IMG/VR virus record: IMGVR_UViG_3300037234_000959
Reading direction: 5' to 3' (one strand)
Source of the DNA: an uncultured virus (IMG/VR IMGVR_UViG_3300037234_000959)
Lineage: Duplodnaviria > Heunggongvirae > Uroviricota > Caudoviricetes
Length of the DNA: 64,000 nucleotides
The notes beneath the pieces are model-generated. The model searched no databases. It saw only the letters and a program-made list of their open reading frames with translations, and was not told where the DNA came from. The translations under genes and the position numbers were made by a program. This document shows, in pieces, positions 39,874 through 60,465 of this stretch. Every line of letters begins with the position of its first letter. Within the stretch, counting starts at the first letter, position 1.

Positions 39874-41271
39874 ATGTATTCTCCTTGATCGTTGTGGTGA
39901 GTAATCTCCGCGTATTTTACGATTGCCATAATAAGAGTTTGGATGCCAAACTTCTTCTGCTCCTTCCGTATATTCAAACTTCAAAAAAGGCGGGTCGCCA
40001 GCACCTTCACTTGAATAGAATTGCTCATATTCCCCCGCTACTGCGTCGTCCGTTCTCCAAAGAAACCCATAGTTAGTTGAAGGGTTCTCTATCATATCCT
40101 GCAAGGTTGCTGGCGTTAAATCAAATGTATGAGTTCCGGATGAACCTACAAAAGTGGTGGACTCTGGAATTGTTTGATAGTCTACTCCTGCCGTCCGACA
40201 CCCCTCACTATCCCAGGGAACGGTGTTGAACTTCCTCCAATTAAAACAGGGTTCGTCAATTCCTGCTGTCGTACCATCTTTTGTTCCATCTACCCAATCA
40301 CCAGCTAGAATTCTATGGATTTTGTGATTATAGCCATTACCACTCCTGCCAGATGAAGTAGCCCCCAGATGCCCTGATAATATAGTAATGCCTAAACCTG
40401 AATATGCGGTCAAATCTGTATTACTTAGTATATCTGATTCATTTGCGCCAGCTACAAATCTATGCGTCCACATTATAGGTGTAGCTCCATAGTTTTTATC
40501 AAGATTCAGAGCGAAGTTAGATAATAGAGTTTCAATGAAAGTACCGCTAACACCATCAATGGTGAAATAAGGGTCAACCTTTACTGGAGCAGCAGCTTGT
40601 CTAAGCCATGAGATATCCACAATCCGCTTAATAATAGTCTGTCTGCCGCCCTCAACAGAACCAAGATCCAGTACGACTTCTCCTCTCTCGCCGTTAGCAT
40701 CCTCTGCCCATGGCGCATGTATCATGATCGGTTCGGGGCCATCAAGGAGTATGCCGCCATTGACCTCTTTATAGGTATATCCGCCGCCAAGTTCCTCAAT
40801 ACTGAACTTAAAACTATCAGGCGCGTTTAAAGGGTCGTCAAGCACCATTACAACAGCAACACCCTTATACGTCGGAGTATGCTCAATAGTCACACCTTTC
40901 TGGGCCTTAAATTTTGGCTTATTATCAGTGATCGATTCGAATGAACAGTTCGCCCCTTCATACCTTAGGCGTATGCCTGTGCCGGATTCATATTGGAGTG
41001 TTACTTCATGTTTGTTTAAAGATGAAGGATTGACAAAAGAGAGGTTGCCATATCTCCCTTCATTAACGCGCCAAGGGTTTCTATCTCCAATCCTCTCAGT
41101 AAGGCCCATATCACAAGGAACAAAGAGTCCGCTATTTTTGTCCCTTTTATTAAGGCCATTTTGGAGGATCGCCCTGATAATGGGAGACTCCACACCCGTC
41201 TTAATATCTTTGTGCGTCCTGCCCGTGATGATCTCGTTTATATCCAGATCTTTATGAAAAATTTGCGGCAT
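39865..41271 (-). CDS. DNRLRE/CBM96-like domain virion protein
   Basis: NYG...NYGFL...FYSSE...P.L...Y pattern; APWAEDANG. Confidence 0.6.
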   Translation of the reverse strand: MPQIFHKDLDINEIITGRTHKDIKTGVESPIIRAILQNGLNKRDKNSGLFVPCDMGLTERIGDRNPWRVNEGRYGNLSFVNPSSLNKHEVTLQYESGTGIRLRYEGANCSFESITDNKPKFKAQKGVTIEHTPTYKGVAVVMVLDDPLNAPDSFKFSIEELGGGYTYKEVNGGILLDGPEPIMIHAPWAEDANGERGEVVLDLGSVEGGRQTIIKRIVDISWLRQAAAPVKVDPYFTIDGVSGTFIETLLSNFALNLDKNYGATPIMWTHRFVAGANESDILSNTDLTAYSGLGITILSGHLGATSSGRSGNGYNHKIHRILAGDWVDGTKDGTTAGIDEPCFNWRKFNTVPWDSEGCRTAGVDYQTIPESTTFVGSSGTHTFDLTPATLQDMIENPSTNYGFLWRTDDAVAGEYEQFYSSEGAGDPPFLKFEYTEGAEEVWHPNSYYGNRKIRGDYSPQRSRRIHGT

Positions 41272-44200
41272 TATACCTTTACCCGCTTAAGCAAAAACAA
41301 CCCTCTCCCTTCAACCATCTCCATAGCCTTCTTCAAAGTCTTTTCCTTCTTAATCAACCTAAAGAGGTTTTCCATCACCTTGTTGATTTTATTCCTCTCC
41401 ACTCCCTCAGGATAAGGGAAGACCTGCTCCCACTCTCCTTTTTCGTTCGGCATGACCTGCCCCACGTTACTGGCATGACCGACCAGGTAGGTATTCGTCC
41501 GGCCAGTCTTCTTGAGTTTATCTTCCATAAAACCCTCGAAGGATCTGGCTGCCATCTCTTTAGGTGACGACCAGTAGGAGGACTTGCGGCCTTCCAGTTC
41601 TTCTATGCGCCTGGCGCTGGCGAGGAACTTGCTCCCACGGGAAGCAGGGTCAACAAATGTACCCTTACTCCCCTTGTGGTGGGCAACAGACATCTCTCGG
41701 AAAAGTTTGTAATTCTTGTCCGCTTTTTTCCCCGAACCAAACCTTCCTTCAGTGCGAAGTTCATGTAGCTTATCAATAGCACCTTGCAGGTTTTTAGCAT
41801 CTTTAATTGTATGAAAAGCGGAGCCAGCCCTGTTAGAGGGGGAGGTCCTAGCCTCAAGCTGACTCTTCCAGTGATCACGCTCTCTATCGGTCAAGGTAAC
41901 GGTTTGTTTCTGTCCATGTTCGCCTGCGGTCATGATTTCAACCAGATCGCCGAACGCCTTTTGGACAGGGGTTGATTGCATTTCCTTAGAAGTATCGGTA
42001 CTGAACGTTATCGTTCCACTCCCCACTGCACCCCTATCGACTTCACCGGCTATGTGATCAACAGCGTGAAACCATTCATGACTAAGGGACCCGCCCCCTT
42101 TCATCTTCGTCAGATTGATAGCCATATACTGGCTTTCGTAATGAGCGGCCGCCTTTGACAGGCCCTGCCCTCTGGCACCAAATGCCATAGAAAGCCTGTT
42201 ATTCATAGAAATGTCCTTGTCGGGGATACTGAGCATGTCCGCCATATCCTGAAAAGCCATTGCGCACTGCTCTACATGAAACTTGGCAGAATTGACATCC
42301 TTAAGTACCCAGTTTCCGGACTGTACGTTTTTAAGCTTAAACTGTTTCTGGAGCTCTTCCGTTGTGTTTGAGACAAGCGGACTTCCCCCCGTGCGCTCTA
42401 TATGATCGGCTACGGCAAGCTGAAAGCGGACATTTTGCTTTGTCCCCTTCTTAACCGTGCTCTCTCCCTTGGCAAAGGAGTAATCCTTAACCCTGCCGAC
42501 ACGGGCGGCGGAAACATGTTTACCGAATGCATCAGAGCCCTTAAAGCTGCGGAATTTAACGACAGCGTAAAACTTCTTGCCCAACGCTAGATTGCCACGG
42601 GTGAGGATATTGTCTTCCACATTCCGGCGCTTAACGACCTCCCGAAAGAGTCTCATTTCTGCCTGCGCTTCTCCGGACTTTTTGTAATGGGAGTCCATTG
42701 TCTTCTGATTTTTCTTACGCCATGCAGCATCGATGTCAAATAACTTATTTACTTTCTTATCGAGTACCTTAAATTTTTTCTCCAATTCTGGATCAGCTTT
42801 CCATCCTCTACGGGTTCTCGCCTGCCGCTCATAATTCATACTATCACGTTCCTTAGATGGCCCGTAGTAGGCGCCCCACACCTTGTCGTGTTCTTCACGC
42901 AAATCACGGTATTTGTTCCAAGCGTTACTATGCTTCCCGTCTAGCTTCTTATATGTCTTTACCTCTTCAGGGTTTAGAACAAAACCATCAACCTCCTCTT
43001 CAATCTCCTTGAGATTTTTCATTACATCGTCAATGGTCTTGACCTTCTCCATTCTATCCTTCAGCGAATTAATGCCAAAGACGAAATCTTCCCTCAACTG
43101 CGGCAAGTCATCTGGACGGATAGCAACAGCCGTGTATATTTTCTGGATGAGGAAGGCGGCGCCGGGCTCTACTCCTCGCTTTTCCATCTCATCGAAGGTT
43201 GAGGCTCCGAAGACGTTCTGCTTATTAATAAGGTTATAGGCCTCCTTCGGGTTTTCCTCCAAAGACATCCAGTCAAGATCAGGCCCCCTGAGTCCTCGCT
43301 TATCCCGGATGAACGATCTTATCTGCAGAAGGGCTTGCTCCTTCCTGGACCCCGGGATATTCCCAACATCCTTAAACCGATAGTCTTTAGACCGATAGTC
43401 AAGGTCATCTTCAGGGGCAGTCTTTTTTGTCCTAATGTCGGTATGTTCTCTTACTTGGACAATCTTGCCTGCCTTGGTTTTCCGAGTGTGGGCCTTTACC
43501 CGAGATTTCATAAGAAAAAGACCTGATGCCATTTCTACGATTGACTTAGTTATTCTTGGCCTCCCTAAGGGGCGACCCATCCATGAATCTGTACCACGGT
43601 CAACCATCACAGATTCACGAACTGAGTAGGGTTCATTATTGTTAAAAAATATTGCATCGGTAGCAACTTTACCCTGAACGGCCTCTATGATATTTTTTCT
43701 CATTGCATCGGTTAGCTTGTCGGATCTATTGGCAGTCATGATAACCTCAGGGGATCCAAACTCTCTTGCTCTACCCCTCAGATAATCAGCGAGCCCTTCC
43801 TTATTCTTGGACATGCCTACTGGTATTTCCTGTATGCCCCTAATTTTTCCATCTGAACCACGGTAAAAGACGTTAATGAAATCATCAGGTGTTTTTAAAT
43901 CCTTGGCAAACCTTATAACATCTTCTTGTCCGCTGATCTTTTTTCCGAGCAAAGGATGAGGAAGCGACGGCTCTATAAATGTATCGACCTTTTCTTCAAG
44001 CTTAAATGTTTCCGGCTCCTTGGTCAACCTTACTTCACCGGGAAGATGGGCTACACCTATAGTGGAATATTCATTTGAATTAATAATCACATGCCCCTTT
44101 ATCTCGGGAATACGATCGATAAGATAACTGGTTAATTGTACATCTGCCCCGGACGGCTTTGACCGGCCGCTGGGATGGTTATGTAGAAGCCACACGCTAT

Positions 44201-44741
44201 CAGCGCCAAGTCGCTTGATCCTGTCTTTTAACTCGTGGACTTCTTTTGCTGGTTCTTTGGCAAAGGCTATTACCATGCCAGGCATACGACTTGTCCTCCC
44301 TTCGTGGCCTACAACCTTACCTTCCTTTGTATATATATAGCGGGTGGTTTCAAATTGTGGATTCCGGTAGACCTGTGCGAGTACCGCGATATCTTCAGCG
44401 TTTTTAGCCTCACGACCACGGAGATCTATATATCCCTTGTTCGCCAGTTCCGACGTTATGCCCACACCGAGAGTCTTAACGCCTCCCTTGCGCACCTTTT
44501 TTTCCATTCGATGGGTAGCGGCAAGAGCCTCAGCTGCTATCTGCAGGTTGAGCTTATCCTTTTTGTAGACCTCATGGTTATCGGAAAGATACTTTGCCGC
44601 AAGGGATGGGGAAGAAAGTTGGTGGGATTCCGCCTTTTTGGTTCTGCTATCCTCATGCTCTTTTACGAGAACAACCTTGCCACTTTTTAGCCTGCGGGAA
44701 TGCCCCTTAACACGCGATTTCAATAGCAGAGGAAAAAACAT
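41271..44741 (-). CDS. Large polyvalent protein: JAB/RadC plus LPD1/zincin-like
   Basis: HNHPSG...PS.AD JAB; AFGARG...AHYE...HEWFH; YWS...EM.AR.FE...YP.G.ER LPD1. Confidence 0.75.
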   Translation of the reverse strand: MFFPLLLKSRVKGHSRRLKSGKVVLVKEHEDSRTKKAESHQLSSPSLAAKYLSDNHEVYKKDKLNLQIAAEALAATHRMEKKVRKGGVKTLGVGITSELANKGYIDLRGREAKNAEDIAVLAQVYRNPQFETTRYIYTKEGKVVGHEGRTSRMPGMVIAFAKEPAKEVHELKDRIKRLGADSVWLLHNHPSGRSKPSGADVQLTSYLIDRIPEIKGHVIINSNEYSTIGVAHLPGEVRLTKEPETFKLEEKVDTFIEPSLPHPLLGKKISGQEDVIRFAKDLKTPDDFINVFYRGSDGKIRGIQEIPVGMSKNKEGLADYLRGRAREFGSPEVIMTANRSDKLTDAMRKNIIEAVQGKVATDAIFFNNNEPYSVRESVMVDRGTDSWMGRPLGRPRITKSIVEMASGLFLMKSRVKAHTRKTKAGKIVQVREHTDIRTKKTAPEDDLDYRSKDYRFKDVGNIPGSRKEQALLQIRSFIRDKRGLRGPDLDWMSLEENPKEAYNLINKQNVFGASTFDEMEKRGVEPGAAFLIQKIYTAVAIRPDDLPQLREDFVFGINSLKDRMEKVKTIDDVMKNLKEIEEEVDGFVLNPEEVKTYKKLDGKHSNAWNKYRDLREEHDKVWGAYYGPSKERDSMNYERQARTRRGWKADPELEKKFKVLDKKVNKLFDIDAAWRKKNQKTMDSHYKKSGEAQAEMRLFREVVKRRNVEDNILTRGNLALGKKFYAVVKFRSFKGSDAFGKHVSAARVGRVKDYSFAKGESTVKKGTKQNVRFQLAVADHIERTGGSPLVSNTTEELQKQFKLKNVQSGNWVLKDVNSAKFHVEQCAMAFQDMADMLSIPDKDISMNNRLSMAFGARGQGLSKAAAHYESQYMAINLTKMKGGGSLSHEWFHAVDHIAGEVDRGAVGSGTITFSTDTSKEMQSTPVQKAFGDLVEIMTAGEHGQKQTVTLTDRERDHWKSQLEARTSPSNRAGSAFHTIKDAKNLQGAIDKLHELRTEGRFGSGKKADKNYKLFREMSVAHHKGSKGTFVDPASRGSKFLASARRIEELEGRKSSYWSSPKEMAARSFEGFMEDKLKKTGRTNTYLVGHASNVGQVMPNEKGEWEQVFPYPEGVERNKINKVMENLFRLIKKEKTLKKAMEMVEGRGLFLLKRVKV

Positions 44742-45131
44742 CTATGCCCTCCCAGTTACTTTTTTAATTAACAAACCAGCGCCCCTCATCATATGACCAA
44801 TACTCCCCTTTCGGGCAAACTGCCCTTTGTGACCCCTTGCGTCATGACGTTCAGGCTCCTTTGGCGGCTCTCCGCTTTGCTGCTCGGTAAGACTATTGCA
44901 GTAATCAACGGTCGCCTTCAGGCCCGCAACAGCCTCCTTCAATTGTTCACGGGATTCGAGTAGGTCACTATCATCTGGCGCCTTAGCCAATTTTTTGTCC
45001 ACGCCTTTGAGTAAGGAGACGGCCGCATCGTATTTCTTATTGACCCTCTGGAGATCCTTAAGAACCATAGATACTTCGTTAGCGGTCTCATCCCTACGCT
45101 TATGTAGCTTTCTTGTTACCGTATTTTTCAC
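44742..45131 (-). CDS. Coiled-coil hypothetical protein
   Basis: AAGGAG RBS; ends GLLIKKV. Confidence 0.55.
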   Translation of the reverse strand: MKNTVTRKLHKRRDETANEVSMVLKDLQRVNKKYDAAVSLLKGVDKKLAKAPDDSDLLESREQLKEAVAGLKATVDYCNSLTEQQSGEPPKEPERHDARGHKGQFARKGSIGHMMRGAGLLIKKVTGRA

Positions 45132-45267
45132 AGTTTGCTCCTTTTACAATATGAGCTTTCTTCCTTCATCATGCTTTACACGCCCTGATTTGATGCAATC
45201 GGCCATATGTAGAAACGCTTCCCCCGGTTTTCCTTTTCCGTCATCAAGGAAAAATGTCTTTAAGATA

Positions 45268-45681
45268 TTATTTTTTCTTAAACTTATCAATTGCACCCTG
45301 AACACCGTAATATCCGAAGTAAAAGACTATTGCAGCAAAGAAGGCTGCACCGATCTTCAGGGCCGTGTTTAACTTCAATAGAAATTCTGCCCACTCTTTA
45401 TTAAACATCCAAGCCGTGCCGATGACAAAAAGTTGTAACAGTTGCGCCTTGACTATCAGGAAAGCTATTTCACGCCGCGCCTTGCTTCTTTCAGAATTCT
45501 GTTCCATGTTCAATTTCTGAAATTCAAGAAACTGATCCATGCCTTTCTGACTATATTGAATCTTCTCTTCTTCTGTCAGAATCAAAACATCAATTGCACT
45601 TCTGATGTCTCCAACAGTATCAATAGCAGCATCTGCAGCCTTGCTGCCAGAATTCAACCAGGTTAAAGGGTTCCAGTTCAT
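45268..45681 (-). CDS. Holin-like membrane protein (3TM-holin-like)
   Basis: T.EEK motif, two TM helices, FYFG. Confidence 0.6.
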   Translation of the reverse strand: MNWNPLTWLNSGSKAADAAIDTVGDIRSAIDVLILTEEEKIQYSQKGMDQFLEFQKLNMEQNSERSKARREIAFLIVKAQLLQLFVIGTAWMFNKEWAEFLLKLNTALKIGAAFFAAIVFYFGYYGVQGAIDKFKKK

Positions 45682-45905
45682 TTCTCTTCCCCGCTGACCT
45701 GCACTCCCATCTTTTGTTCCGCAATCTTCTGCAGCACTTTAGGACAGAACGCACCGACAAGATATGCCGTGAATATATAGATCCCGTTACTGGCATCTGC
45801 CGGATTTTTATATACGATGTAGCATCCGGTCACAATCGCAGCAACAAGACATGTGAAACTCATGATACGCAAACTTGAAACATTACCGTTATCTTCTTTA
45901 AACAT
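45678..45905 (-). CDS. Two-TM holin-like protein
   Basis: EDNG.VSSLR.M, two TM helices, K.LQK.AE. Confidence 0.65.
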   Translation of the reverse strand: MFKEDNGNVSSLRIMSFTCLVAAIVTGCYIVYKNPADASNGIYIFTAYLVGAFCPKVLQKIAEQKMGVQVSGEEK

Positions 45906-45907
45906 AA

Positions 45908-47854: not shown

Positions 47855-48850
47855 TTAATTTCCTATTTTAAAGATATTCAATCCTAAATCGGATATATTC
47901 AATCTTACATTGTCTTTATTGGCTTTATATCGCAACGTCAACACGTCTCCGGCTTCTACGTTAAATTCTATAGGAAACGCTATAACAGCACTGGAAAAAG
48001 ATTCTATGAGTTTAACTTCATCTATATGTAATTTGTGCGAATCAGAACAAGCTACGTCATTATGTCGAATTGCTACTTCGAACGCTCCATTATCCACATA
48101 TTGACTAGCAGGGCCAATGGAAGCAAATTTCCAACTTACTCTCTCATAAGGTTCTACAGCTGCTCCTACATCCTCAAAGTCTTTTGCCAAAATGTTAGCA
48201 TCTACATGCAATCCAGTAGAATAATTTTTAAATAACACATTAGCCCAATGATTAGTATTATTACTCTGATAAGCACTCGTACCTATCACTATATAAGCGG
48301 GGTCAATTACATCACTAAAACCAATTCGTATTTCCATACACCCCGTACTGCCCGTACCACTCTCTATAGCTATTAAATCATCCCCATCACTGGCGTAAAG
48401 ATATCTGATAGAAGATTGAGTATCGAATACAGCGCTACCACTATCAGAAGTAATATTCCTATAAGTCGGCAATAGCTCTGGTCCTTTAGCCATTGAGCGC
48501 TTAATGTCATCGATTGCTGAATTATTCTTGAATACTGCCATTGTGATAGTAGATCCAGATGGGGCCTTAAAGGAGGCGTGTAATACTCCCACATATCTAC
48601 CTTCTAGTCCCGTGCCGAAAGTCATAGTCCCAGCACCTTCATCAATAGTTATCCCTATTGTAGCACTAGAAGATGTTACACCTGACCATTGGATGAAGAC
48701 TGTAGTAAGGGTTTGGAAAGTTCCATCTCCTCCATTATTGTCTTCATGCATATATGCACCCGGGGTATTGGTTATATAGGTGGCATTTGCTTTGCTTATA
48801 AATAAGGATAACACCATAAGCAAAATAACCAGTACTATTGTTTTTTTCAT
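47855..48850 (-). CDS. Signal-peptide beta-rich protein
   Basis: MKKTIVLVILLMVLSLFISKANA; C1q/BclA-like strands. Confidence 0.65.
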   Translation of the reverse strand: MKKTIVLVILLMVLSLFISKANATYITNTPGAYMHEDNNGGDGTFQTLTTVFIQWSGVTSSSATIGITIDEGAGTMTFGTGLEGRYVGVLHASFKAPSGSTITMAVFKNNSAIDDIKRSMAKGPELLPTYRNITSDSGSAVFDTQSSIRYLYASDGDDLIAIESGTGSTGCMEIRIGFSDVIDPAYIVIGTSAYQSNNTNHWANVLFKNYSTGLHVDANILAKDFEDVGAAVEPYERVSWKFASIGPASQYVDNGAFEVAIRHNDVACSDSHKLHIDEVKLIESFSSAVIAFPIEFNVEAGDVLTLRYKANKDNVRLNISDLGLNIFKIGN

Positions 48851-48864
48851 ATTAAATTCTCCCT

Positions 48865-50079
48865 TTAAAATTGCTCACTCCATACAAGGCTACCTGTGGC
48901 ATCTGTTGTGGAAGAAGTAGCCTCTACGCTTAAGGTTAATGTTTCGCCGGGTTCAAGAACAATATTGTACTGAGACAAATCAATAACATCTCCAGTACTT
49001 TTGCTCACTGATATAGTGAATATTGGTTCTCCTCCAGTTAATGTTGTCCCTGCTATATCATAGCTTACAACACTGGTATTCGCACTTATATCACTATAAC
49101 TGGGACTCCCGCCAAGAGTTGCATTTTTTACTAATCGGATAATCGCAGGCTTGGTGCCATCAACACCATAACTGAAGGATTTTAATTCTATTTCTACTCT
49201 ATTGGTTTTGGTTACAAAAAGAGCCTTATTCTGGATTGTTACAATATTTGTTTCAGTTGTCGTAACTGCTGCCTTATCATTTGAAATAGACACAATGTTG
49301 CCCAACTCTGCTTCTTTGCCCTCAATACCGCCCATCATTGACGATGTTTGAAGCATTACATTGGTGTCGTTGGATGTGTTAATTACTTCAGCATGAAGAG
49401 GCAGTGAAGGATTAAAGATAGATGGATCTGTATAAGCGTTGGCATATTCTATAGTATGGACTTTGATAAAATCACCTGTTGGCGGGTTTTCTATCCAAAA
49501 AGTAATGGCGCCAAAGCCTAGCCACTGATACCTTATTTGATATACATTCCCTTTAGTTATATCAATGAATGGGAGCGCTCCTGCCCCAGTAGCTTTATCA
49601 TTACTCCATGCTGTTTGAGCCGTCCAATTATCAACGCTATTTTGCCGTCTTAGAATTCCAAATGTAGCTCCATTGCAGCCAAAGAAAAACCCATCAACAG
49701 CATCTCCTATCCCTAGTATTTGGCTTGAACCATCAACACACGCAGTATATATAGTAGTATCCCTTATAACCGACCCTTGCCCTTGTCTATATGACAAAAC
49801 ACGCCTCGACCAAAGATATGCTGCGGAAGAAGATGCCGCAGTTGTTTGTAATACGGCTTTAGAATTTGATTGCGTTACAGTCCCAGAGCCTACTGTAGAT
49901 GTGTTTACAAAGGCGGCATTTATATTGTAAGAAAAACCTATCTGTACTTTTGGGGTTATTTCGCCTACTAATAACCCACCGAAGGCTGTTTTTTGTAATG
50001 ATTCTGGTGGAGCATAAGTTGCAAAGGCAATCGTTGGAACCAGCAGTAATGCCAATAAAAATATTTTTAAGAGTCTCAT
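48865..50079 (-). CDS. Signal-peptide protein resembling phage structural/lectin-like proteins
   Basis: MRLLKIFLLALLLVPTIAFA; Y..GQG, DGFFFG, YQWLGFG, NPSLPL. Confidence 0.65.
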   Translation of the reverse strand: MRLLKIFLLALLLVPTIAFATYAPPESLQKTAFGGLLVGEITPKVQIGFSYNINAAFVNTSTVGSGTVTQSNSKAVLQTTAASSSAAYLWSRRVLSYRQGQGSVIRDTTIYTACVDGSSQILGIGDAVDGFFFGCNGATFGILRRQNSVDNWTAQTAWSNDKATGAGALPFIDITKGNVYQIRYQWLGFGAITFWIENPPTGDFIKVHTIEYANAYTDPSIFNPSLPLHAEVINTSNDTNVMLQTSSMMGGIEGKEAELGNIVSISNDKAAVTTTETNIVTIQNKALFVTKTNRVEIELKSFSYGVDGTKPAIIRLVKNATLGGSPSYSDISANTSVVSYDIAGTTLTGGEPIFTISVSKSTGDVIDLSQYNIVLEPGETLTLSVEATSSTTDATGSLVWSEQF

Positions 50080-50090
50080 GTCATACCTCA

Positions 50091-50729
50091 TTATTTTATA
50101 AGTAAGTTATCCTTATAGGTAAAATATGTAATATTCTCATTTCGAGTTGTTATACATCTGGCCGCAACCCCATCTATAGTTTCTGCTCCTGCCGGATCAA
50201 TACAGCAGCTATTCCCTGATGCATCTATCTTTTTTACATTACCAATTCGTTGCCCCACAACTCCCGAGGCTGAAACTATATAAATGTCAATATCGTCAGC
50301 CGTTGCATCACATATGATTTGATTTTTATTATTGATAGCAGAATAATTACTAAATATGGTTGTTGTGCTTGTAAAAGTCGACAACAACATAAACGAGGTA
50401 TCGGGTAAACCGTTAAGAGTTTTGGCGTCAACATTACCGGTAAAATTAGTGAAGCTCGTTTCAAGGCTGTTGAGCTGGCTCGATACATTCGCCAATACTG
50501 GCATCGCAACGGGATCTGTTTCAGTCCCAAGCGTTCCAGTCCCATATGACGAATAATCACCAAAAACAATCTTATCGCCAGGCACTAAAGGGCTTACCAC
50601 CCCCGTCCTGCTATCACGTATCCACCCTGATTCGCGAGGGTCGATAGTTTTACCCCCTTTTTCGGTGCGTCTGCCATAGGCTGGAAACGCCATCGCAAGG
50701 ATAAGTATTGCTAAAAGTATTTTTTTCAT
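50091..50729 (-). CDS. Signal-peptide protein with fibre-like C-terminus
   Basis: MKKILLAILILAMAFPAYG; DAKTLNG and KKIDASGN...ETIDG motifs. Confidence 0.65.
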   Translation of the reverse strand: MKKILLAILILAMAFPAYGRRTEKGGKTIDPRESGWIRDSRTGVVSPLVPGDKIVFGDYSSYGTGTLGTETDPVAMPVLANVSSQLNSLETSFTNFTGNVDAKTLNGLPDTSFMLLSTFTSTTTIFSNYSAINNKNQIICDATADDIDIYIVSASGVVGQRIGNVKKIDASGNSCCIDPAGAETIDGVAARCITTRNENITYFTYKDNLLIK

Positions 50730-50824
50730 TATCACTTCCCCTTTTTTATGTGTTAGCTCCGTAAAACTACCTTCTTCAGGTGGCAGATATAAGGAGCGGG
50801 CTTCGAGAAGCCCTAATCTTTTAC

Positions 50825-50853: not shown

Positions 50854-50860
50854 GTAAATC

Positions 50861-52051
50861 ATGATAATTAATAAGGCATACAGTTTTCGTTTGTATCCAA
50901 CAAAAGAGCAGGAGAACTTGTTTGCTCAACATTTCGGGTCATGCCGTTTTGCTTATAATCACTTTCTTCGTCAAAGGATAGACTTCTATGCCGAGAATAA
51001 GGAGAGCGATAAGATAGGTTTAACATATTGCGACACCTCCAGAATGTTGACGGAACTTAAAAAACAACCGGAAACTGTCTGGCTTAAAGATGTCAATTCT
51101 CAATCCCTTCAGCAGTCCCTTCGCCGTCTTGACGTTGCTTACAATAATTTCTTTAGCAAGAAGGCTCAATTCCCGAAGTTTAAAAGTAAGCATAAAAAAC
51201 AATCTTTTCAGGTTCCTCAGAATTTCAGCATAGATATTGATAATGGACTTCTTTCTATCCCTAAAATCGGCTCTCTTAAAATCGTATTGCACCGGGGAAC
51301 CGAAGGAACTATGAAAAGCATCACTATATCCAAGACACCTTCTGGTAAATACTTTGCCTCCATCCTTTGCGAGATAGAGAAGGATATCAAGCCTAAACAG
51401 ACTGGTGGGCAGATAGGTATTGATCTTGGCCTCAAGTCTTTTATCGTAACCTCCGAGGGTGAAAGTATTGGTGCTCCTAAGTTCCTCCGCAAGTCTGAAA
51501 ACAAGCTTGCCCGGCTTCAGCAGCTCCATTCCCGCAAAAAGAAAGGAAGCAACAGAAGAAACAAAGCGAGAATAAAAGTTGCTCGCATATATGAAAAAAT
51601 TTCCAATCAGAGAAATGACTTCCTTCATAAACTGAGTCACCGTCTGACTAGCGAGAACCAAGCTATCCTTGCCGAAGACTTGAATATTAAGGGAATCATG
51701 GCGAATCATTGTCTGGCTAAGTCCGTTTCGGATGCTGGCTGGTCGGAGTTTATTCGTCAAATCAAATATAAATCTGAATGGAACGGGGTATATTTTGGAC
51801 AGATTGACAGATTCTTTCCAAGTAGTAAGCGATGTGCAGTTTGCGGCTGGATAAATCAATCCCTTTCCCTTAAAGATAGGGAATGGACTTGTCAGGGTTG
51901 CGGCCAAGTTATTGATCGTGATTTGAATGCTGCTCAAAATATCCTCCAATTTGGTTTGCTTCAACGTACCGAGGGACGCTCGGAAACGAAACGCCCAGGG
52001 AGACCACGTGCTGTTAGACGGGTCGCTGAACTGGGAAGCCGCCTGCGTTAG
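50861..52051 (+). CDS. tnpB: RNA-guided endonuclease TnpB
   Basis: N-terminal HTH; RuvC GIDLG / EDL / DRDLNAA; CxxC...CxxC Zn finger. Confidence 0.95.
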   Translation: MIINKAYSFRLYPTKEQENLFAQHFGSCRFAYNHFLRQRIDFYAENKESDKIGLTYCDTSRMLTELKKQPETVWLKDVNSQSLQQSLRRLDVAYNNFFSKKAQFPKFKSKHKKQSFQVPQNFSIDIDNGLLSIPKIGSLKIVLHRGTEGTMKSITISKTPSGKYFASILCEIEKDIKPKQTGGQIGIDLGLKSFIVTSEGESIGAPKFLRKSENKLARLQQLHSRKKKGSNRRNKARIKVARIYEKISNQRNDFLHKLSHRLTSENQAILAEDLNIKGIMANHCLAKSVSDAGWSEFIRQIKYKSEWNGVYFGQIDRFFPSSKRCAVCGWINQSLSLKDREWTCQGCGQVIDRDLNAAQNILQFGLLQRTEGRSETKRPGRPRAVRRVAELGSRLR

Positions 52052-52063
52052 CAGGCGGAGCCG

Positions 52064-52480
52064 TCACTTAAACTTACGTGCTGAAGCGGCCAAGATGGTT
52101 AATTCCAGCTCTACCGTCCCTGTTGCGTTTACGGCATCTACGTTATTAATATACAGATAGAGATAGGCTTCCCTTGGTGTATCTGCATTGGCATAGTGCT
52201 TATGTATCTCAGTGGCCACATATCGGACGTCAATGCCAGTTTCGACAAACAGTTCTTTTACCGTGGGTGGCGTAACATCCTTTTCGCTTCTCAGGGATAT
52301 ATCAAAATTCTCCGAGTCACAAGTTACGGCCAGGTCGACAAGTTTCCCGCCCTCGGGCGCAATAAGTCGTATCTGATCAGACAATGTGCCGGCAGCGATC
52401 GACGGGATGGTAAATTTATGAATATGTAGATGCTTCATCTCGTATAGTTTGTCGTCGGAATCTTCACTGGCATCTATCAT
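52064..52480 (-). CDS. Hypothetical (probably virion) protein
   Basis: GAGGAG RBS; stop codon supplied by the IS end. Confidence 0.6.
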   Translation of the reverse strand: MIDASEDSDDKLYEMKHLHIHKFTIPSIAAGTLSDQIRLIAPEGGKLVDLAVTCDSENFDISLRSEKDVTPPTVKELFVETGIDVRYVATEIHKHYANADTPREAYLYLYINNVDAVNATGTVELELTILAASARKFK

Positions 52481-52592
52481 AATAAATTCTCCTCTTGATT
52501 TTGATTAATTTTTTAAAAGAGTTTTAAACTTACATATACAGCAATATGTGTTATGATAATCCTATCATTACCTACGATTCAGCGAGGGTTTC

Positions 52593-53165
52593 ATGTCTAA
52601 ACGTTCTACTTATGGTCATATTCGTTATTTCCCTCGTCAAAAAACACCATATAGACTGATTAGTGTTACTGTGGATGGAATCAGAAGGCAAAGATTCGAA
52701 CATCGGCTTGTAATGGAAGAATTTTTGGGGCGTCCGCTTAACAATGATGAGGTGGTTCATCATATTGACGGCAATGGCCTTAATAATGATCCGAGCAACC
52801 TTGAAGTTCTTACACAATCCAAACATCAAAATTTGCACCTGTTTAATGGTCCCCACAAATGGTCGCTGGAGGAAGCAATCAAACTTAGAGGACAAGGTAA
52901 AACATTTGACTACATCGCAAACCATTTTAAGGTAGCCCCTGCTAGCATTCTCACCGCTTTTTATAGAAGAGATCTGCCAACAACTGATTTGCGATGGGGA
53001 ACAAACAAATGGGATGTCGAAAAAGGAATATCTCTTCTTAAGGAGGGGCACTCCCTCTCCTATATTGCTAAAGCAATGGATATTACGTCCCCATCTGTGA
53101 GAAAGGCCTTTGTGAAGCGTGGTCTGCTTCCACCCCCAGTTCCCAGAAAAAAATCTTTTAAATAA
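52593..53165 (+). CDS. HNH homing endonuclease with HTH repeats
   Basis: EHRLVME..LGRPL...EVVHHIDG...NN...NL. Confidence 0.85.
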   Translation: MSKRSTYGHIRYFPRQKTPYRLISVTVDGIRRQRFEHRLVMEEFLGRPLNNDEVVHHIDGNGLNNDPSNLEVLTQSKHQNLHLFNGPHKWSLEEAIKLRGQGKTFDYIANHFKVAPASILTAFYRRDLPTTDLRWGTNKWDVEKGISLLKEGHSLSYIAKAMDITSPSVRKAFVKRGLLPPPVPRKKSFK

Positions 53166-53179
53166 AAATAATATCATAT

Positions 53180-54235
53180 TTATTTTGCTACCCGTCTCTT
53201 TTTCCACATTAATGGCATAGACTTAATAATTTTTGCTGTCTTCTCCTTGGTCGCCAATACCTTGTCCTTGAACTGCTCCATGGGCATAGTAGTCATGCTG
53301 CCAAGGAATCTTTTGTCGTTGTAGTGGGCAAGATAGGCAGACTTAGCTTCGCTCATAGAGGCAAAGCCAAGCATACATTTCTGTTCATCATAGGTTTTAA
53401 ATTCAGGCGCCTTCATCTGGTGGACTATATAAGCGCTCTTCGCATCCTTATGGGGCCCAACATAGCAATCTACATGATCACCATCGCTACCCTCAGTCAT
53501 CCTGATGTAGCCATAAGGACATTTCATACGGGTTGTGCCGTTCTCCTTATTATGCGGATCGTACCACTGCCTGATGCTACCCTTGCGATTTTCGACGGAT
53601 ATATTCAGACCTTGGAAGTTCATGCGGCCGTGGAGGGAGCGGGATTTAAGGAGATAAGGGACTAAGGCAGGAAGAGACTTTTTGATTGTTTTATGGATGT
53701 AGTGACCATCCACCTTTTCGATCTCATCCAGATTAACCGTAAAGGTTCCACTACCCTTTTCCATCTCAATCCTGTTTGATGCTGGCATTACCTTAGTCAC
53801 CTTCATGATTCCGAAAGCGCGATTACCTGTGTCTACTGAATCGCCAGGCTTTATCGCCTTCCCCGGCTTCTTCTCAGGATCCTCTTTATCCTTGCCGCTC
53901 CCGCCCGTCGCATGCTCATAGAGGTTCCTGAATGCCTTGTCGGGACTCAGCTCGCCGCCTTCGCCAAATTTCTCTTGAAACTCATCTGCAACTTCCTTAG
54001 GGATGCCCGTCCTATGCTTGAATGCGGCATATGCCGTTTCGAAGCTGTCGTGCTTAGCCACCTCGCTAACAATTGCCGAAAGTCCACTACTCATAGATGG
54101 AGCCTTGGCAGTCTTCTTACTCCTTATGTCTTCATGTTGGCGAACCTGAACGATTTTCCCGCCCTTCGTCTTCCTTGTATGCTCTTTGACGACGGACTTG
54201 ACCATTTGCTCTAGTTTAGAAAGGGAAATGTACAT
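53180..54235 (-). CDS. Polyprotein with inorganic-pyrophosphatase-like (InPase) domain
   Basis: EN.KGS.R...YGYI..T.G.DGDHVDCYVG...DE.KCMLGF; N-terminal basic tag. Confidence 0.75.
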   Translation of the reverse strand: MYISLSKLEQMVKSVVKEHTRKTKGGKIVQVRQHEDIRSKKTAKAPSMSSGLSAIVSEVAKHDSFETAYAAFKHRTGIPKEVADEFQEKFGEGGELSPDKAFRNLYEHATGGSGKDKEDPEKKPGKAIKPGDSVDTGNRAFGIMKVTKVMPASNRIEMEKGSGTFTVNLDEIEKVDGHYIHKTIKKSLPALVPYLLKSRSLHGRMNFQGLNISVENRKGSIRQWYDPHNKENGTTRMKCPYGYIRMTEGSDGDHVDCYVGPHKDAKSAYIVHQMKAPEFKTYDEQKCMLGFASMSEAKSAYLAHYNDKRFLGSMTTMPMEQFKDKVLATKEKTAKIIKSMPLMWKKRRVAK

Positions 54236-56847
54236 TGAACTACCTCCGATTTTTTAATTCGCTTACTTGCTTCTTTTAAAGTTTTTTGACTTACCCCAAC
54301 TACTCCAGAACGACCTTTTTCATCTCTAAAACCCTCGATGTCCTTAAAGGTAAGAAACCGTGTTTTGCCAACAACGGACTTCTTCTTTTCAGGCTTAAAC
54401 GTGCTGTGAACTACGTTCCCCTTTTCCCTTTTCCGGTAAACCATGGAGACAACTTCTTTGTTCCCCTGTTCCGCAAAGATGATTGCATCAGCTTTCTTCT
54501 TCAAACCAAGCAGTCCACGACCATCAGCCCACTTGACGAAGAAACCATATCCGTTTTCGGCAACATCGGGAGTATCAAGCTTTTTGAACTTCTCGATAAT
54601 TGTGCTCTCTTCCCGGGGGAGGCTCGAAGATTTTTTAAGAAGAAATACCCTTGCCGCCATGGACTTCCTTAATTCTACTAGCTCCATAGATATAATATCG
54701 TTCTTAATCTTATCCCATGTTTTTTTCGTAAAAGGCCCGTCAGCAAGATCATTGCCTCTATTACGGTCTTCACCTGCTTCAGGCTTCCTCGCTGAACAAA
54801 CACAGCCAAGATATCCATCGGTATCTTTCGATGTCGAGATATAATTACTTCTATCTATGGCACGAACACTATATTTGTATCTATCGGTATAAAGATTGAA
54901 GGCAACACCTATCTCTGAATTGCCATGATCGTCTCCTTGTCCCCAGTCTTCTTTGATATCTACAAATTTATCAACACGACAGTATCTTGCGATTTCCTGT
55001 AACCACTCGTTTTTGAGAGTTTCTATTTTAGACATTTTATTATAAGACTTCTTAAGCAAAAACACCTTAGGAGCCAATATAAGCGCTTTTCTCTTCTGTT
55101 CAGAAGAGCATGTCTTTTCGAGTTCGGCGCCCTTAGGCAAAAGCAAGGGTATGCCTTTTTCTGCAAGAGACTTCCGAAGGCAGTACGTTCCATCTTTACC
55201 TAAATAAAGGTGATAGGCGTTGTTGTAGTGTTCATGTCCATGGGTACTCTCGCTCTTCTCTATACCACGAAGTCTATCTACCATGTCTCCAAAGAGTCCC
55301 TTAAAGGTAACACTCCATATCTGCTCAACCGCATGCCGCCAGCTAGTAAACCTGACAGCCCTGTCATCGAGGTAGATGTCTGCTATCGGCTTGCCCGGGT
55401 TCGTCCCTTCCGGCTGGTTTGGATTGATATTGATAAAATGATAAGAGATTTCATTATTGGCAAGATACGCCCTTAGCGCCGGGGTGTCTTCTCTGGTTGT
55501 AAATACAATAATCATGAAGCCAAATTCTGTAAGCTTCTGCATGGCCTCCACCGCCCCCGGGAGAACTTCTCCAAAAACATCATTTCCCTGAAAACCCTTA
55601 GAGTAGTCGGCAATGACACCATCGAAATCAACGCATACCGTTTTGTGTCCAGAAGAAACGCTCTTCCTGAGATCAAGAGCCTCCCGCATACTCTTCATGT
55701 AGTCCTGAAGGTCTTCAATGCCTCCAAGATCGCGCATCTTAACAAGGGCACCCTTGACGGCATCGGCAACATTATTGCGGGTCCATGCATATTCCTCTTG
55801 ATATTTCGTGCCCCTCTCTTTAAGCTTCTCGGCAATTTGCTCATTGGTATGTGGCTCATTATCACCGAGACCGAACTTCATACTAATCAGGTCGGCATCT
55901 GTTGAAGGGATCCGCGAAAGAAACTTCTCGATCGCTTTTTCTTTCGGAGGAAGCGCGAATCTTTCATGTTCAGGAGCGCTACTTAAGGCAGCAAGATTCC
56001 GCCTTGCTTCCGGATCCTCTTCGCCAGACTGGATGTCTATATGCTCTCTGCGTCTCTTGTTCTGGGTATTTACAACCTGTAGGGCTGAGTTTTTTCCTTC
56101 TCTCGACATGGAAACAAATATTCTACTCTTGTCTCGCTTTCCAGCCAGATGATCCTTGAATTCCTGTATATCCTTATCCGGGGTTTGAGCCGCCTCCCTA
56201 CGCAATGCATTCAGCATCCCTATGGCATATTCAGAAACCATGTCCGCATAATCATCATCATGGACACGAATAAACTCCCCGCTTGGATCAAAGCTTGTGT
56301 CCATATTATTCTGCTTGGCCAACCTGTGAACGCGATTAATGATATATCCCTTAATCCTATCATTAGTCAAAATATCTTCCTCGGTCATGCCAAGTCGCTT
56401 CATTCCTTTTTCACTCCTCTTCAGGCTTTCCTCTGAAGTAAGTACACGGTGAGCGCTGATCTTATCTCCTTTTGTGTAGCGAGTGTCCTTCTTACCCTTC
56501 TCCTGAAATGCCTTTAGCGATATAACCTGGCTCTTAGGGAGTATGTAGTTGATCACCTGGCCCTCGTTGCCCCGCTTACCCTTTATATGGTAATTCTCTG
56601 CCTTTGCGCCGACAATAACTCCCCTTCTCGCCCTTGCGGCCCCTTTAGGCCTGAAAACAACCTCCGTCCCCTTAGGGAGGCCCTTTTCTTTCCCGGTCTT
56701 CTTTTTGCGGATATCAGAATATTCCTTTACCTGAACCACTTTCCCGCCCCTTGTTTTCCGAACATGGGCCTTGACCACGGACTTGATAAGAAGGAGGTCC
56801 GTTGCAATGCCCAAGATAAAGGACTTAGATGTTTTTTTGTCAGCCAA
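54211..56847 (-). CDS. Polyprotein: basic tag, KOW-like, sigma70-like, HAD phosphatase and unknown domains
   Basis: Region 2- and 4-like motifs; VDFDGV...KP.ADIYLDD. Confidence 0.7.
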   Translation of the reverse strand: MADKKTSKSFILGIATDLLLIKSVVKAHVRKTRGGKVVQVKEYSDIRKKKTGKEKGLPKGTEVVFRPKGAARARRGVIVGAKAENYHIKGKRGNEGQVINYILPKSQVISLKAFQEKGKKDTRYTKGDKISAHRVLTSEESLKRSEKGMKRLGMTEEDILTNDRIKGYIINRVHRLAKQNNMDTSFDPSGEFIRVHDDDYADMVSEYAIGMLNALRREAAQTPDKDIQEFKDHLAGKRDKSRIFVSMSREGKNSALQVVNTQNKRRREHIDIQSGEEDPEARRNLAALSSAPEHERFALPPKEKAIEKFLSRIPSTDADLISMKFGLGDNEPHTNEQIAEKLKERGTKYQEEYAWTRNNVADAVKGALVKMRDLGGIEDLQDYMKSMREALDLRKSVSSGHKTVCVDFDGVIADYSKGFQGNDVFGEVLPGAVEAMQKLTEFGFMIIVFTTREDTPALRAYLANNEISYHFININPNQPEGTNPGKPIADIYLDDRAVRFTSWRHAVEQIWSVTFKGLFGDMVDRLRGIEKSESTHGHEHYNNAYHLYLGKDGTYCLRKSLAEKGIPLLLPKGAELEKTCSSEQKRKALILAPKVFLLKKSYNKMSKIETLKNEWLQEIARYCRVDKFVDIKEDWGQGDDHGNSEIGVAFNLYTDRYKYSVRAIDRSNYISTSKDTDGYLGCVCSARKPEAGEDRNRGNDLADGPFTKKTWDKIKNDIISMELVELRKSMAARVFLLKKSSSLPREESTIIEKFKKLDTPDVAENGYGFFVKWADGRGLLGLKKKADAIIFAEQGNKEVVSMVYRKREKGNVVHSTFKPEKKKSVVGKTRFLTFKDIEGFRDEKGRSGVVGVSQKTLKEASKRIKKSEVVQCTFPFLN

Positions 56848-60459: not shown

Positions 60460-60465
60460 ACTGAT

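What the first reader, a model, noticed from the sequence alone, without database searches (positions are those of the whole stretch)
41271..56847. Shared ~29-aa basic tag on unrelated cargo domains: a candidate virion addressing or ejection signal
Seen four times: KSRVKGHSRRLKSGKVVLVKEHEDSRTKK and KSRVKAHTRKTKAGKIVQVREHTDIRTKK (start and middle of the 1156-aa protein), KSVVKEHTRKTKGGKIVQVRQHEDIRSKK (351 aa) and KSVVKAHVRKTRGGKVVQVKEYSDIRKKK (878 aa). Each starts at a hydrophobic-x-KS site and precedes a different cargo. The genes lie between portal/MuF and the prohead protease. Established: MuF-linked polyvalent proteins (RadC, LPD1, InPase) are proposed to be packaged and injected. Inference: cleavage exposes the tag as a new N-terminus that binds DNA or directs co-ejection, giving a modular protein-delivery system.
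Basis: partly seen in the sequence, partly recalled or inferred. Interest (0 to 1): 0.85.

Follow-up and report, generated by a model that had tools for sequence, protein, structure and literature searches.

The report
Basic hairpin tag on phage cargo
An uncultured ~90-kb tailed phage marks its packaged anti-host proteins with one repeated ~30-residue basic hairpin preceded by a likely "cut here" site; the label recurs in hundreds of uncultured-phage proteins, is undescribed in the sources I checked, and could explain how such proteins are cut apart and kept with the DNA.

Summary
The window holds exactly four copies of the tag in three minus-strand genes. They are kept by selection, not by recent duplication.

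The tag is one cassette of a large family with no Pfam or PDB sequence match. A tag profile finds 549 protein clusters at E<=1e-3, and 111 of the 150 best hold 2-5 copies. The tags sit at the N-terminus of, or between, classic polyvalent-protein domains such as InPase, ART, RadC, ParB, topoisomerase IB, SNF2 and SAM lyase. All the carriers come from metagenomic, phage-like contigs.

AlphaFold2 models the core as a confident two-stranded beta-hairpin. Just upstream lies an unstructured but equally conserved motif, hydrophobic-x-Lys|Ser/Ala. The same motif is about 8-fold enriched in this phage's scaffold and occurs at conserved spots near the capsid protein's N-terminus.

Best reading: the prohead protease cuts before each tag. 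The basic hairpin then stays on the released cargo and holds it to DNA. Neither the cleavage nor the DNA binding is shown. This is a new variant of a known kind, and it can be tested.

The parts
41271..44741 (-). P0001, 1156-aa polyvalent protein: leader, tag 1, RadC/JAB module, tag 2, HExxH region, LPD1, C-terminal FLLK|RVKV
44721..44741 (-). 7-residue leader MFFPLLL that precedes Lys8 (P1) of tag 1
44634..44720 (-). tag copy 1 (P1 Lys plus a 28-residue basic hairpin unit)
44106..44222 (-). RadC-like JAB domain core (aa 174-212)
   Evidence: PF04002, E 1.1e-6
43422..43508 (-). tag copy 2 (internal, aa 412-440), preceded by GLFLM
41940..42611 (-). region shared with large phage polyvalent proteins (phrog_29900/18947/616), holding HEWFH at nt 42066-42080; candidate zincin-like peptidase, no Pfam match
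41343..41591 (-). LPD1 domain (aa 1051-1133)
   Evidence: PF18796, E 7e-19
41274..41297 (-). C-terminal FLLK|RVKV: a site-like motif at the very end of the protein, with no cargo after it
53180..54235 (-). P0002, 351 aa: 12-residue leader, tag, unassigned ~150 aa, bare site, InPase
54113..54199 (-). tag copy 3
53642..53653 (-). bare LLK|S site (K197|S198) four residues before the InPase domain; no tag follows
53261..53632 (-). InPase domain (aa 202-325)
   Evidence: PF18823, E 1.4e-38
54211..56847 (-). P0003, 878 aa: leader, tag, unassigned regions, HAD-like domain, then two modules each preceded by VFLLK|KS
56698..56784 (-). tag copy 4
55318..55677 (-). HAD-like phosphatase module (aa 391-510)
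   Evidence: phrog_1238, E 1.5e-27; PF00702, E 0.0012, below cut-off
55048..55062 (-). bare FLLKK site (aa 596-600)
54631..54645 (-). bare FLLKK site (aa 735-739)
56896..58107 (-). 403-aa protein after the portal, weakly MuF-like (no Pfam or PHROG hit; BLASTP E 9e-5 and 0.011 to the post-portal proteins of L003 and L017, the latter hitting phrog_115 minor head protein)
58669..60477 (-). portal protein
33393..34364 (-). head maturation protease, the proposed enzyme for the phi-x-K|S/A sites
   Evidence: phrog_1028, E 2.9e-45
32635..33369 (-). acidic scaffold-like protein with 9 phi-x-K-[SA] motifs in 244 aa
   Evidence: assigned by position and composition; no family hit
31110..32573 (-). major capsid protein; candidate sites EMLK|S (nt 32523-32537) and DLAK|A (nt 32454-32468) near the N-terminus

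Best explanation
The tag is a portable two-part cassette used by a group of uncultured tailed phages on proteins that travel inside the capsid.

Part 1 is an unstructured linear motif, hydrophobic-x-Lys|Ser/Ala. I infer that it is a cleavage site of the phage's own head maturation protease.

Part 2 is a ~22-residue two-stranded beta-hairpin followed by a D-x-R-x-K-K tail. It is strongly basic. One face carries Val/Ala and the other Lys/Arg/His.

Proposed sequence of events (all of it inferred):
1. The polyvalent precursors enter the procapsid with the scaffold.
2. The protease degrades the scaffold and cuts the precursors before each tag.
3. Each released enzyme module then begins with the basic hairpin, while untagged fragments can leave.
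4. The hairpin binds the incoming DNA, so the module is retained and leaves with the DNA at infection. There the cargo enzymes (RadC, InPase, ART, ParB, topoisomerase IB, SAM lyase, SNF2 and others) act early against host defences.

What is shown: the cassette itself, its copy number, its spread, its position relative to domains, the hairpin prediction, and the sharing of the site motif with scaffold and capsid protein.
For: Copies and spread:
- The window holds four copies under purifying selection.
- The tag profile finds 549 representative proteins at E<=1e-3 and 100 at <=1e-10 among 1.84 billion.
- Of the 150 best, 111 have 2-5 copies, 307 copies in all.
- In 82 of 150 the first tag's Lys lies within the first 30 residues; leaders are mostly 5-15 aa.
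- Genome counts: 4 in a complete 90-kb relative, 6 in a 31%-complete contig, 7 (divergent) in an 87%-complete contig.

Cargo:
- Of 134 tagged proteins scanned, 60 carry Pfam domains. InPase 23, ART-PolyVal 14, LPD1 12, ParB_N 10, S-AdoMet_lyase 9, Topoisom_I 8, SNF2 6, RadC 5, Zeta_toxin 3.

Context:
- Portal, terminase or minor head genes flank the tags in the window and in L003/L004, L010, L017 and L022.

Site motif over 281 copies:
- P3 is L/M/I/F/V in 91%, P1 is K in 90%, P1' is S in 55% and A in 33%.
- These positions are as conserved as the hairpin core, yet they lie in the part that AlphaFold2 leaves unstructured. The mean pLDDT is 59 for residues 1-10 against ~90 for residues 11-30, with strands at 9-17 and 23-31.

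The same motif in proteins a prohead protease is expected to cut:
- Window scaffold: 9 phi-x-K-[SA] in 244 aa (36.9 per 1000) against 4.5 per 1000 over 65 ORFs. The protease has 15.5, the MuF-like protein 12.4, P0002 and P0003 11.4 each.
- Lysines lying in phi-x-K-small: 9 of 25 in the window scaffold (1.9 expected), 11 of 23 in L013 (1.4 expected), 8 of 26 in L022 (1.5 expected).
- Capsid proteins of three phages keep phi-x-K|S/A near the N-terminus: EMLK|S and DLAK|A; ELCK|S and LKK|A; MMK|A.

Charge:
- Window tags carry +6 to +8. The mean is +5.5 over 281 copies.

Precedent:
- Prohead-protease-processed, ejected head proteins are known in T4 and SPN3US (passages of PMC10052503).
Against: - No cleavage, virion presence, DNA binding or ejection has been observed. 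Every carrier is metagenomic.
- Many leaders are only about 5 residues long, so cutting would remove very little.
- P0001 and its relative P0018 end in GLFLLK followed by 2-4 residues with no cargo after them. This fits a binding motif or a vestige better than a useful cut.
- Not every module is tagged. The InPase of P0002 and two modules of P0003 follow bare sites.
- The scaffold of L022 uses mostly K-G. I counted it only after widening P1' to S/A/G post hoc; by S/A alone it is not enriched (2 in 322 aa).
- Two proteins of cultured Bacteroides phage BS162P1 begin directly with a hairpin-like core and have no phi-x-K site. The hairpin can therefore exist without the site.
- A zincin-like HExxH region in P0001 offers another candidate protease.
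- Foldseek found no significant structural match for the hairpin.
- The scaffold is assigned by position and composition only.
Confidence: 0.5

Rival explanations
1. The hairpin is mainly a loading (capsid-targeting) signal. It binds the poly-acidic tract of the scaffold, or the inner face of the capsid or portal, during procapsid assembly. DNA binding is secondary or absent. This can coexist with cleavage at phi-x-K|S.
For: - The scaffold-like proteins of all three tag-bearing phages examined carry long acidic tracts, flanked by phi-x-K-small motifs.
- The hairpin is amphipathic and basic.
- In P1, DarA-Hdf cargo sits on the inner capsid surface (abstract of PMC12810830).
- The T4 capsid targeting sequence is a short N-terminal signal; this is stated generally in passages of PMC10052503, and the details are recalled.
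Against: - If the precursor is cut only after assembly, one signal per polyprotein would suffice for loading. Yet 111 of 150 proteins carry 2-5 copies.
- No partner was tested, because the complex predictor was unavailable.
Confidence: 0.2
2. The sites are cut by the zincin-like metallopeptidase carried in the polyvalent proteins themselves (HEWFH region of P0001), acting in cis and in trans, not by the prohead protease. This is the processing route that Iyer et al. 2017 proposed for polyvalent proteins.
For: - P0001 holds an HExxH region shared with large phage polyvalent proteins.
- 13 of 150 tagged proteins hold the same region, always together with LPD1.
- The paper proposes MPTase autoprocessing (passages of PMC5512222).
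Against: - 137 of 150 tagged proteins lack the region, although one copy per genome could act in trans.
- The motif is most enriched in the scaffold and is present near capsid protein N-termini, which are the usual substrates of a prohead protease.
- The region has no Pfam peptidase match.
Confidence: 0.12
3. Nothing is cut. The hydrophobic-x-K-S/A residues and the hairpin form one structural connector or nucleic-acid-binding unit that recurs between domains of intact polyvalent proteins. The resemblance to scaffold motifs is a shared composition or usage bias.
For: - Very short leaders, and site-like motifs at extreme C-termini.
- The N4 virion RNA polymerase is packaged unprocessed (passage of PMC5512222).
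- The BS162P1 hairpins lack the site.
Against: - P3 and P1 are conserved at about 90% in a segment predicted to be unstructured.
- Bare sites without hairpins mark other module boundaries.
- Lysines lie in the motif 5- to 8-fold more often than composition predicts in three scaffolds.
Confidence: 0.13

Closest known systems
Polyvalent proteins of phages and conjugative elements (Iyer, Burroughs, Anand, de Souza, Aravind 2017, PMC5512222)
   Same: - The domain repertoire is the same (InPase, RadC, LPD1, ART, ParB, SNF2, topoisomerase).
- The genes lie beside portal and terminase genes.
- The paper likewise proposes packaging and injection with the DNA, and proteolytic processing.
   Different: - In the passages I read (term searches for cleav, linker, basic, hairpin, repeat, interdomain and prohead protease) no conserved inter-domain tag or prohead-protease site is described. 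The word 'linker' does not occur.
- The paper proposes processing by zincin-like MPTases.
- Its supplementary domain files on FTP were not seen.
- The tag matches no Pfam family, the LPD families included.
T4 capsid targeting sequence and internal proteins (IPI-III, Alt)
   Same: A short N-terminal leader ends in a prohead-protease site. The mature proteins are basic, stay in the head and are injected with the DNA. The details are recalled; the general statement is in PMC10052503.
   Different: - T4 cuts after Glu, whereas P1 here is Lys.
- In T4 the address is the removed leader. Here the conserved ~28-residue element lies after the cut and would be retained.
- The element recurs inside polyproteins.
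- There is no sequence relation.
Ejection-protein propeptides of giant phages SPN3US and phiKZ
   Same: Many internal head proteins are trimmed by the prohead protease at one short motif. Several motif copies occur within propeptides and scaffold-like regions (passages of PMC10052503).
   Different: - Those propeptides are 20-254 residues long and are discarded.
- The cleavage position there is a Glu (e.g. E-124; the full motif is recalled).
- No retained basic hairpin is present.
Phage P1 Dar system (DarA, Hdf, DarB, DdrB)
   Same: Anti-restriction cargo is packaged in the head. It is partly proteolytically processed and contacts the capsid and the DNA (abstract of PMC12810830; passages of PMC5512222).
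   Different: Loading there depends on dedicated proteins (DarA/Hdf), not on a short repeated tag. PHROG hits to 'DarB-like' families here come from the InPase region only.
MuF-fused effectors and toxins
   Same: The cargo genes lie next to the portal and a MuF-like gene. The aim is to deliver an enzyme with the DNA (passages of PMC5512222).
   Different: There the cargo is covalently fused to MuF. Here there is no fusion: none in 3 window proteins, and MuF_C in 1 of 134 tagged proteins.
   Same: It describes a short conserved peptide that divides a giant phage head-cluster protein into modules and was read as a cut-here tag.
   Different: The motif differs (G-F/L-x-Q), the proposed enzyme differs (a zinc protease), and no basic hairpin is reported. 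I did not test it here.

Membership tests
Polyvalent proteins (Iyer et al. 2017) | Two or more unrelated effector-type domains in one polypeptide | tested here: met
   P0001 has RadC plus LPD1 plus an HExxH region. P0002 has InPase plus an unassigned region. P0003 has a HAD-like domain plus at least 3 unassigned modules.
Polyvalent proteins (Iyer et al. 2017) | Encoded with a portal-terminase packaging or head gene cluster | tested here: met
   The portal, a weakly MuF-like gene, the protease, the scaffold and the capsid protein lie on the same strand.
Any Pfam family, including LPD1-LPD40 (for the tag itself) | Profile match of the tag | tested here: not met
   0 families for 5 of 5 tag peptides at E<=10. 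No PDB sequence match at E<=10.
T4-type capsid targeting sequence | A short N-terminal leader that ends at a prohead-protease site | tested here: inconclusive
   Leaders of mostly 5-15 aa end in phi-x-K in 82 of 150 proteins. The link to the protease rests only on the motif being shared with scaffold and capsid protein.
T4-type capsid targeting sequence | Cleavage after Glu (L/I-x-E; motif recalled) | tested here: not met
   P1 is Lys in 90% of 281 copies.
T4-type capsid targeting sequence | The leader is necessary and sufficient for packaging and is removed in the virion | not testable with these tools
   Needs virion proteomics and reporter fusions.
MuF-fused cargo | Cargo covalently fused to a MuF domain | tested here: not met
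   No Phage_Mu_F or MuF_C domain in P0001-P0003. MuF_C occurs in 1 of 134 tagged proteins.
Prohead-protease substrates of this phage | The site motif is shared with scaffold and capsid protein | tested here: met
   Scaffold 36.9 per 1000 aa against 4.5 per 1000 overall. The capsid protein has EMLK|S and DLAK|A, and the sites are conserved in two other phages.
Prohead-protease substrates of this phage | Actual cleavage by the protease | not testable with these tools
   The complex predictor was unavailable. No cultured carrier with the site is known.

The most novel reading that the evidence does not exclude
The cassette is a general, transferable 'cut-and-keep' address label. Any protein placed behind hydrophobic-x-K|S plus the basic hairpin would be co-assembled into the procapsid, cut free by the head protease, held on the genome by the hairpin, and injected with the DNA. 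This would explain how polyvalent proteins swap modules freely. It would also give a short natural tag for loading chosen proteins into phage heads.
Probability: 0.3. Interest if true: 0.9.

Novelty: new variant of a known kind. Interest (0 to 1): 0.75.

Why it matters
How polyvalent and other ejected phage proteins are chosen for packaging, cut into working pieces and carried into the host has been argued mostly from domain content. This finding offers a short, sharply defined sequence element found in at least 549 protein clusters. It has a predicted shape and a candidate enzyme, and a few peptides and one protease could test it. If it holds:
- It gives a rule for reading module boundaries in hundreds of unannotated giant phage proteins.
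- It flags the unassigned modules behind tags as probable injected effectors: 74 of the 134 tagged proteins scanned have no Pfam domain.
- It gives a compact natural handle for studying protein delivery by phages.

Tried and rejected
- **Whole genome of the window:** none is held.
- **Cultured phages and plasmids:** tblastn with a window tag found nothing at E<=0.01. With the whole tagged protein P0018, the 30 of 204 records listed all matched only residues 955-1320, not the tags. With a 52-aa tag stretch at E<=10 there were two weak rows (E 1 and 5). One of them led to Bacteroides phage BS162P1, whose two small proteins score E 3e-9 and 3e-7 against my local tag HMM but cover only the hairpin core. 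No paper names that phage.
- **Representative prokaryote genomes:** 44 pattern matches, none confirmed. The patterns were narrow, so this is weak evidence of absence.
I used A1 instead.
- **ESM Atlas:** no usable hit.
- **Foldseek of the hairpin against PDB:** no match at E<=0.001. The top rows (E>=1) are assorted hairpins and were not used.
- **Is the L022 642-aa tagged protein the head protease?** Only BLASTP E 0.001 (N-terminal part) and 0.05 (C-terminal LxNLDRG segment) to the window protease. There is no PHROG or Pfam hit. I keep it as a lead only.
- **Literature on the cleavage specificity of related (SPO1-like) head proteases:** two papers opened, nothing found.
- **Readthrough from P0001 into the next gene:** rejected, because the downstream protein shows no tag remainder.
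- **Weak hits L008/L009 (a provirus, regulatory-gene context):** they cover only part of the hairpin and I do not count them as family members.
- **By-eye impression of a sigma-factor-like helix-turn-helix in P0003 aa ~300-380:** no Pfam support at E<=1.
- **G002 downstream region:** fetched to find a scaffold. It holds more giant tagged proteins but no capsid genes.

Full report
**1. The observation**

The four tags align with 14 invariant columns: K, S, V, K, H, R, G, K, V, V, D, R, K, K.

An HMM of the four copies was run over all 1069 six-frame stop-to-stop frames of the window. It finds only these four (E 2e-24 to 1e-26), and the next best hit has E 0.7. A degenerate DNA pattern for K-S-x-V-K gives 9 matches against 2.7 expected, four of them at the tags.

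The copies are not a recent DNA duplication. 13 of the 14 invariant residues use more than one codon. Third-position identity is 0.21-0.52, while amino-acid identity is 0.59-0.79. All part coordinates were checked by translation.

**2. The surroundings**

The window is a tailed-phage genome segment with a contractile tail. It encodes a tail sheath, baseplate proteins, the major head protein (phrog_752), a head maturation protease (phrog_1028), a portal, a DNA clamp, SSB and SbcCD. The portal is only 24-29% identical to portals of SPO1-like and other large myoviruses. A complete 90,199-bp relative exists among viral contigs; its capsid protein and protease are each 58% identical to the window's.

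Gene order on the minus strand is:
- portal;
- a weakly MuF-like 403-aa protein;
- P0003, then P0002;
- inserted plus-strand HNH and TnpB genes;
- three proteins with signal-peptide-like N-termini, then lysis-like genes;
- P0001;
- a plus-strand block;
- protease, an acidic scaffold-like protein, and the capsid protein.

The cargoes are unrelated to one another:
- RadC/JAB;
- an HExxH region plus LPD1;
- InPase;
- a HAD-like domain;
- several modules with no family.

**3. A second motif**

A strict hydrophobic-[LF]-L-[LM]-K pattern occurs 12 times in frames of 80 aa or more. Seven of these lie in the three tagged proteins. The other five lie in alternative or antisense frames that overlap real genes.

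Besides the tag sites, it marks:
- K197|S198, four residues before the InPase of P0002;
- two VFLLK|KS boundaries in P0003;
- the extreme C-terminus of P0001 (FLLK|RVKV).

**4. The family**

A 13-sequence tag profile (window copies plus copies from viral contigs) was searched against 1.84 billion representative proteins. It found 549 proteins at E<=1e-3, 100 at <=1e-10 and 7 at <=1e-30.

Among the 150 listed:
- 39 have one copy, 74 two, 30 three, 5 four and 2 five.
- In 82 the first tag's Lys lies within the first 30 residues, after leaders of mostly 5-15 aa.
- In 7 the last tag lies within 25 residues of the C-terminus.

I scanned 134 of the 150 against Pfam (P0138-P0153 were left out, and the two batches used cut-offs of 1e-5 and 1e-4). 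60 carry domains, almost all from the polyvalent-protein repertoire:

| Pfam domain | Proteins (of 134) |
|---|---|
| InPase | 23 |
| ART-PolyVal | 14 |
| LPD1 | 12 |
| ParB_N | 10 |
| S-AdoMet_lyase | 9 |
| Topoisom_I | 8 |
| SNF2 | 6 |
| RadC | 5 |
| DUF5661 | 4 |
| Zeta_toxin | 3 |
| MuF_C | 1 |

The other 74 carry none.

A second search that returns sources listed 99 proteins. All come from metagenome assemblies or MAG bins, are named 'hypothetical' at best, and often lie on contigs of 40-105 kb.

Wherever the flanks were long enough, portal, terminase or minor-head genes lie beside the tags (L003/L004, L010, L017, L022). Complete or large contigs carry 4, 6 and 7 copies.

The tag has no Pfam match and no PDB sequence match. 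tblastn finds no hit in plasmids at E<=0.01, and a pattern scan of 185,579 species genomes confirms none (narrow patterns).

**5. Shape and conservation**

Over 281 copies the profile reads:

| Position | Residues |
|---|---|
| P3 | L/M/I/F/V 91% |
| P1 | K 90% |
| P1' | S 55%, A 33% |
| P3' | V/I 90% |
| P6' | H/Y 83% |
| P8' | R 80% |
| P13' | G 77% |
| P18' | V 76% |
| P21' | H/Y 75% |
| P23' | D 52% |
| P25' | R 59% |

After these positions comes K/A/E/P-rich linker sequence.

AlphaFold2 on the 13-row alignment gives a two-stranded hairpin, with strands at residues 9-17 and 23-31. Mean pLDDT is about 90 for residues 11-30 and 59 for residues 1-10; the overall mean is 71.

The hydrophobic-x-K part is therefore as conserved as the fold but lies outside it. 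That is what one expects of a linear recognition motif.

Net charge from P1' to P28' is +6 to +8 in the window and +5.5 on average.

**6. Which enzyme?**

The motif phi-x-K-[SA] occurs at these densities:

| Protein | Count | Per 1000 aa |
|---|---|---|
| 65 window ORFs together | 87 in 19,169 aa | 4.5 |
| scaffold-like protein | 9 in 244 aa | 36.9 |
| protease | 5 in 323 aa | 15.5 |
| MuF-like protein | 5 in 403 aa | 12.4 |
| P0002 | 4 in 351 aa | 11.4 |
| P0003 | 10 in 878 aa | 11.4 |

Counted per lysine, 9 of 25 scaffold lysines sit in phi-x-K-small (1.9 expected from composition). The figure is 11 of 23 in the relative's scaffold (1.4 expected). It is 8 of 26 in the distant L022 scaffold (1.5 expected), where P1' is mostly Gly. 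I widened P1' to include Gly after seeing that sequence. By S/A alone L022 has only 2 in 322 aa.

The capsid proteins of the three phages keep such sites near the N-terminus:
- window: EMLK|S and DLAK|A;
- relative: ELCK|S and LKK|A;
- L022: MMK|A.

Scaffolds and capsid N-termini are the usual substrates of a prohead protease. I therefore infer that this enzyme also cuts before the tags.

The rival enzyme is the HEWFH region of P0001. 13 of 150 tagged proteins share that region, and it corresponds to the MPTase route proposed by Iyer et al.. It cannot be excluded as a trans-acting protease.

**7. What the hairpin does**

This part is inference. A retained, basic, amphipathic beta-ribbon at the new N-terminus of each released module would suit DNA binding. 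It would hold the module in the head while untagged scaffold fragments leave, and it would take the module out with the genome.

The multiplicity of tags within single polyproteins argues for a role after cutting rather than only in loading. Loading by binding to the acidic scaffold tracts remains a serious and compatible alternative.

These points count against a strict 'one tag per cargo' rule:
- bare sites before some modules;
- site-like motifs at the C-termini of P0001 and P0018;
- two proteins of cultured Bacteroides phage BS162P1 that start directly with a hairpin-like core and have no site. In that record neither Peptidase_S78 nor a relative of the window's protease was found, and other protease families were not searched.

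**8. Comparison with what is known**

The proteins are members of the polyvalent-protein class. The tag itself is not a member of any described family that I could test.

In function it resembles the T4 capsid targeting sequence and internal proteins, and the protease-trimmed ejection proteins of SPN3US and phiKZ. It differs from them in three ways:
- P1 is Lys;
- the conserved element lies after the cut;
- it recurs between modules.

Searches for papers that combine polyvalent proteins with prohead protease, InPase with ART-PolyVal, or polyprotein with ejection proteins returned only Iyer et al. 2017 or unrelated work. Term searches inside that paper found no description of such a tag; its FTP supplements were not seen.

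I did not test it here.

**9. Verdict**

My confidence by component:
- conserved cargo cassette of uncultured phages: about 0.95;
- the site is cut by the prohead protease: about 0.65;
- the hairpin retains cargo on DNA for co-ejection: about 0.4.

For the combined reading I give 0.5.

Noticed in passing
window 33393-34364 (-) aa ~225-255, compared with window 31110-32573 (-) aa ~36-62: The C-terminal part of the protease (KGMEK|AMSTATTGALMLENLDRG) mirrors the N-terminal segment of the capsid protein (DLAK|ALTTTNSGPGGIVGGPHMLENLDG). The same pairing is seen in L022. It may be a mimicry by which the protease is built into the procapsid.
   Followed up: partly
L022 8900-10828 (+): A 642-aa protein lies just upstream of the scaffold and capsid genes. 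It carries one tag between a weakly protease-like N-terminal part (BLASTP E 0.001) and a C-terminal part with the LxNLDRG segment. It may be a head protease that itself carries the tag. It has no family hit.
   Followed up: partly
L023 (OP172706.1, Bacteroides phage BS162P1) 7445-7780 and 7787-8482 (+): Two adjacent small proteins of a cultured 88.9-kb phage begin MKKEK and then a hairpin-like core (YQRRTK-S/T-GK-x-VTV-K/R-AH). They lie upstream of the QueD, terminase, portal and capsid genes. This is the only cultured lead for the hairpin.
   Followed up: partly
window 50861-52051 (+), 52593-53165 (+), 36116-36655 (+), 9856-10581 (+): An IS605-type TnpB gene and three HNH endonuclease genes sit on the opposite strand inside or beside the structural gene block. 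They look like mobile insertions.
   Followed up: no
window 47855-50735 (-): Three consecutive proteins (214, 408 and 331 aa) have signal-peptide-like hydrophobic N-termini. They lie between the tagged genes and the lysis-like genes. The middle one hits phrog_1645, 'virion structural protein'.
   Followed up: no
window 53180-53260 (-) and 41274-41297 (-): P0002 ends in MPLMWKKRRVAK and P0001 ends in GLFLLKRVKV. Both look like the first residues of a site plus tag, cut short by the stop codon. P0018, a relative of P0001, ends in GLFLLKKA.
   Followed up: partly
window 13553-14116 (+), antisense to the tail-fibre gene 13132-15384 (-): A repeated peptide (CCKLVDLMLKR, twice, 92 residues apart) in the antisense frame reveals an internal direct repeat in the tail-fibre gene.
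   Followed up: no
L024 1207-7557 (+) and 7700-11269 (+): A second phage lineage (G002) encodes 2116-aa and 1189-aa proteins carrying tags downstream of its three small tagged proteins. It has six tags within 31 kb.
   Followed up: partly
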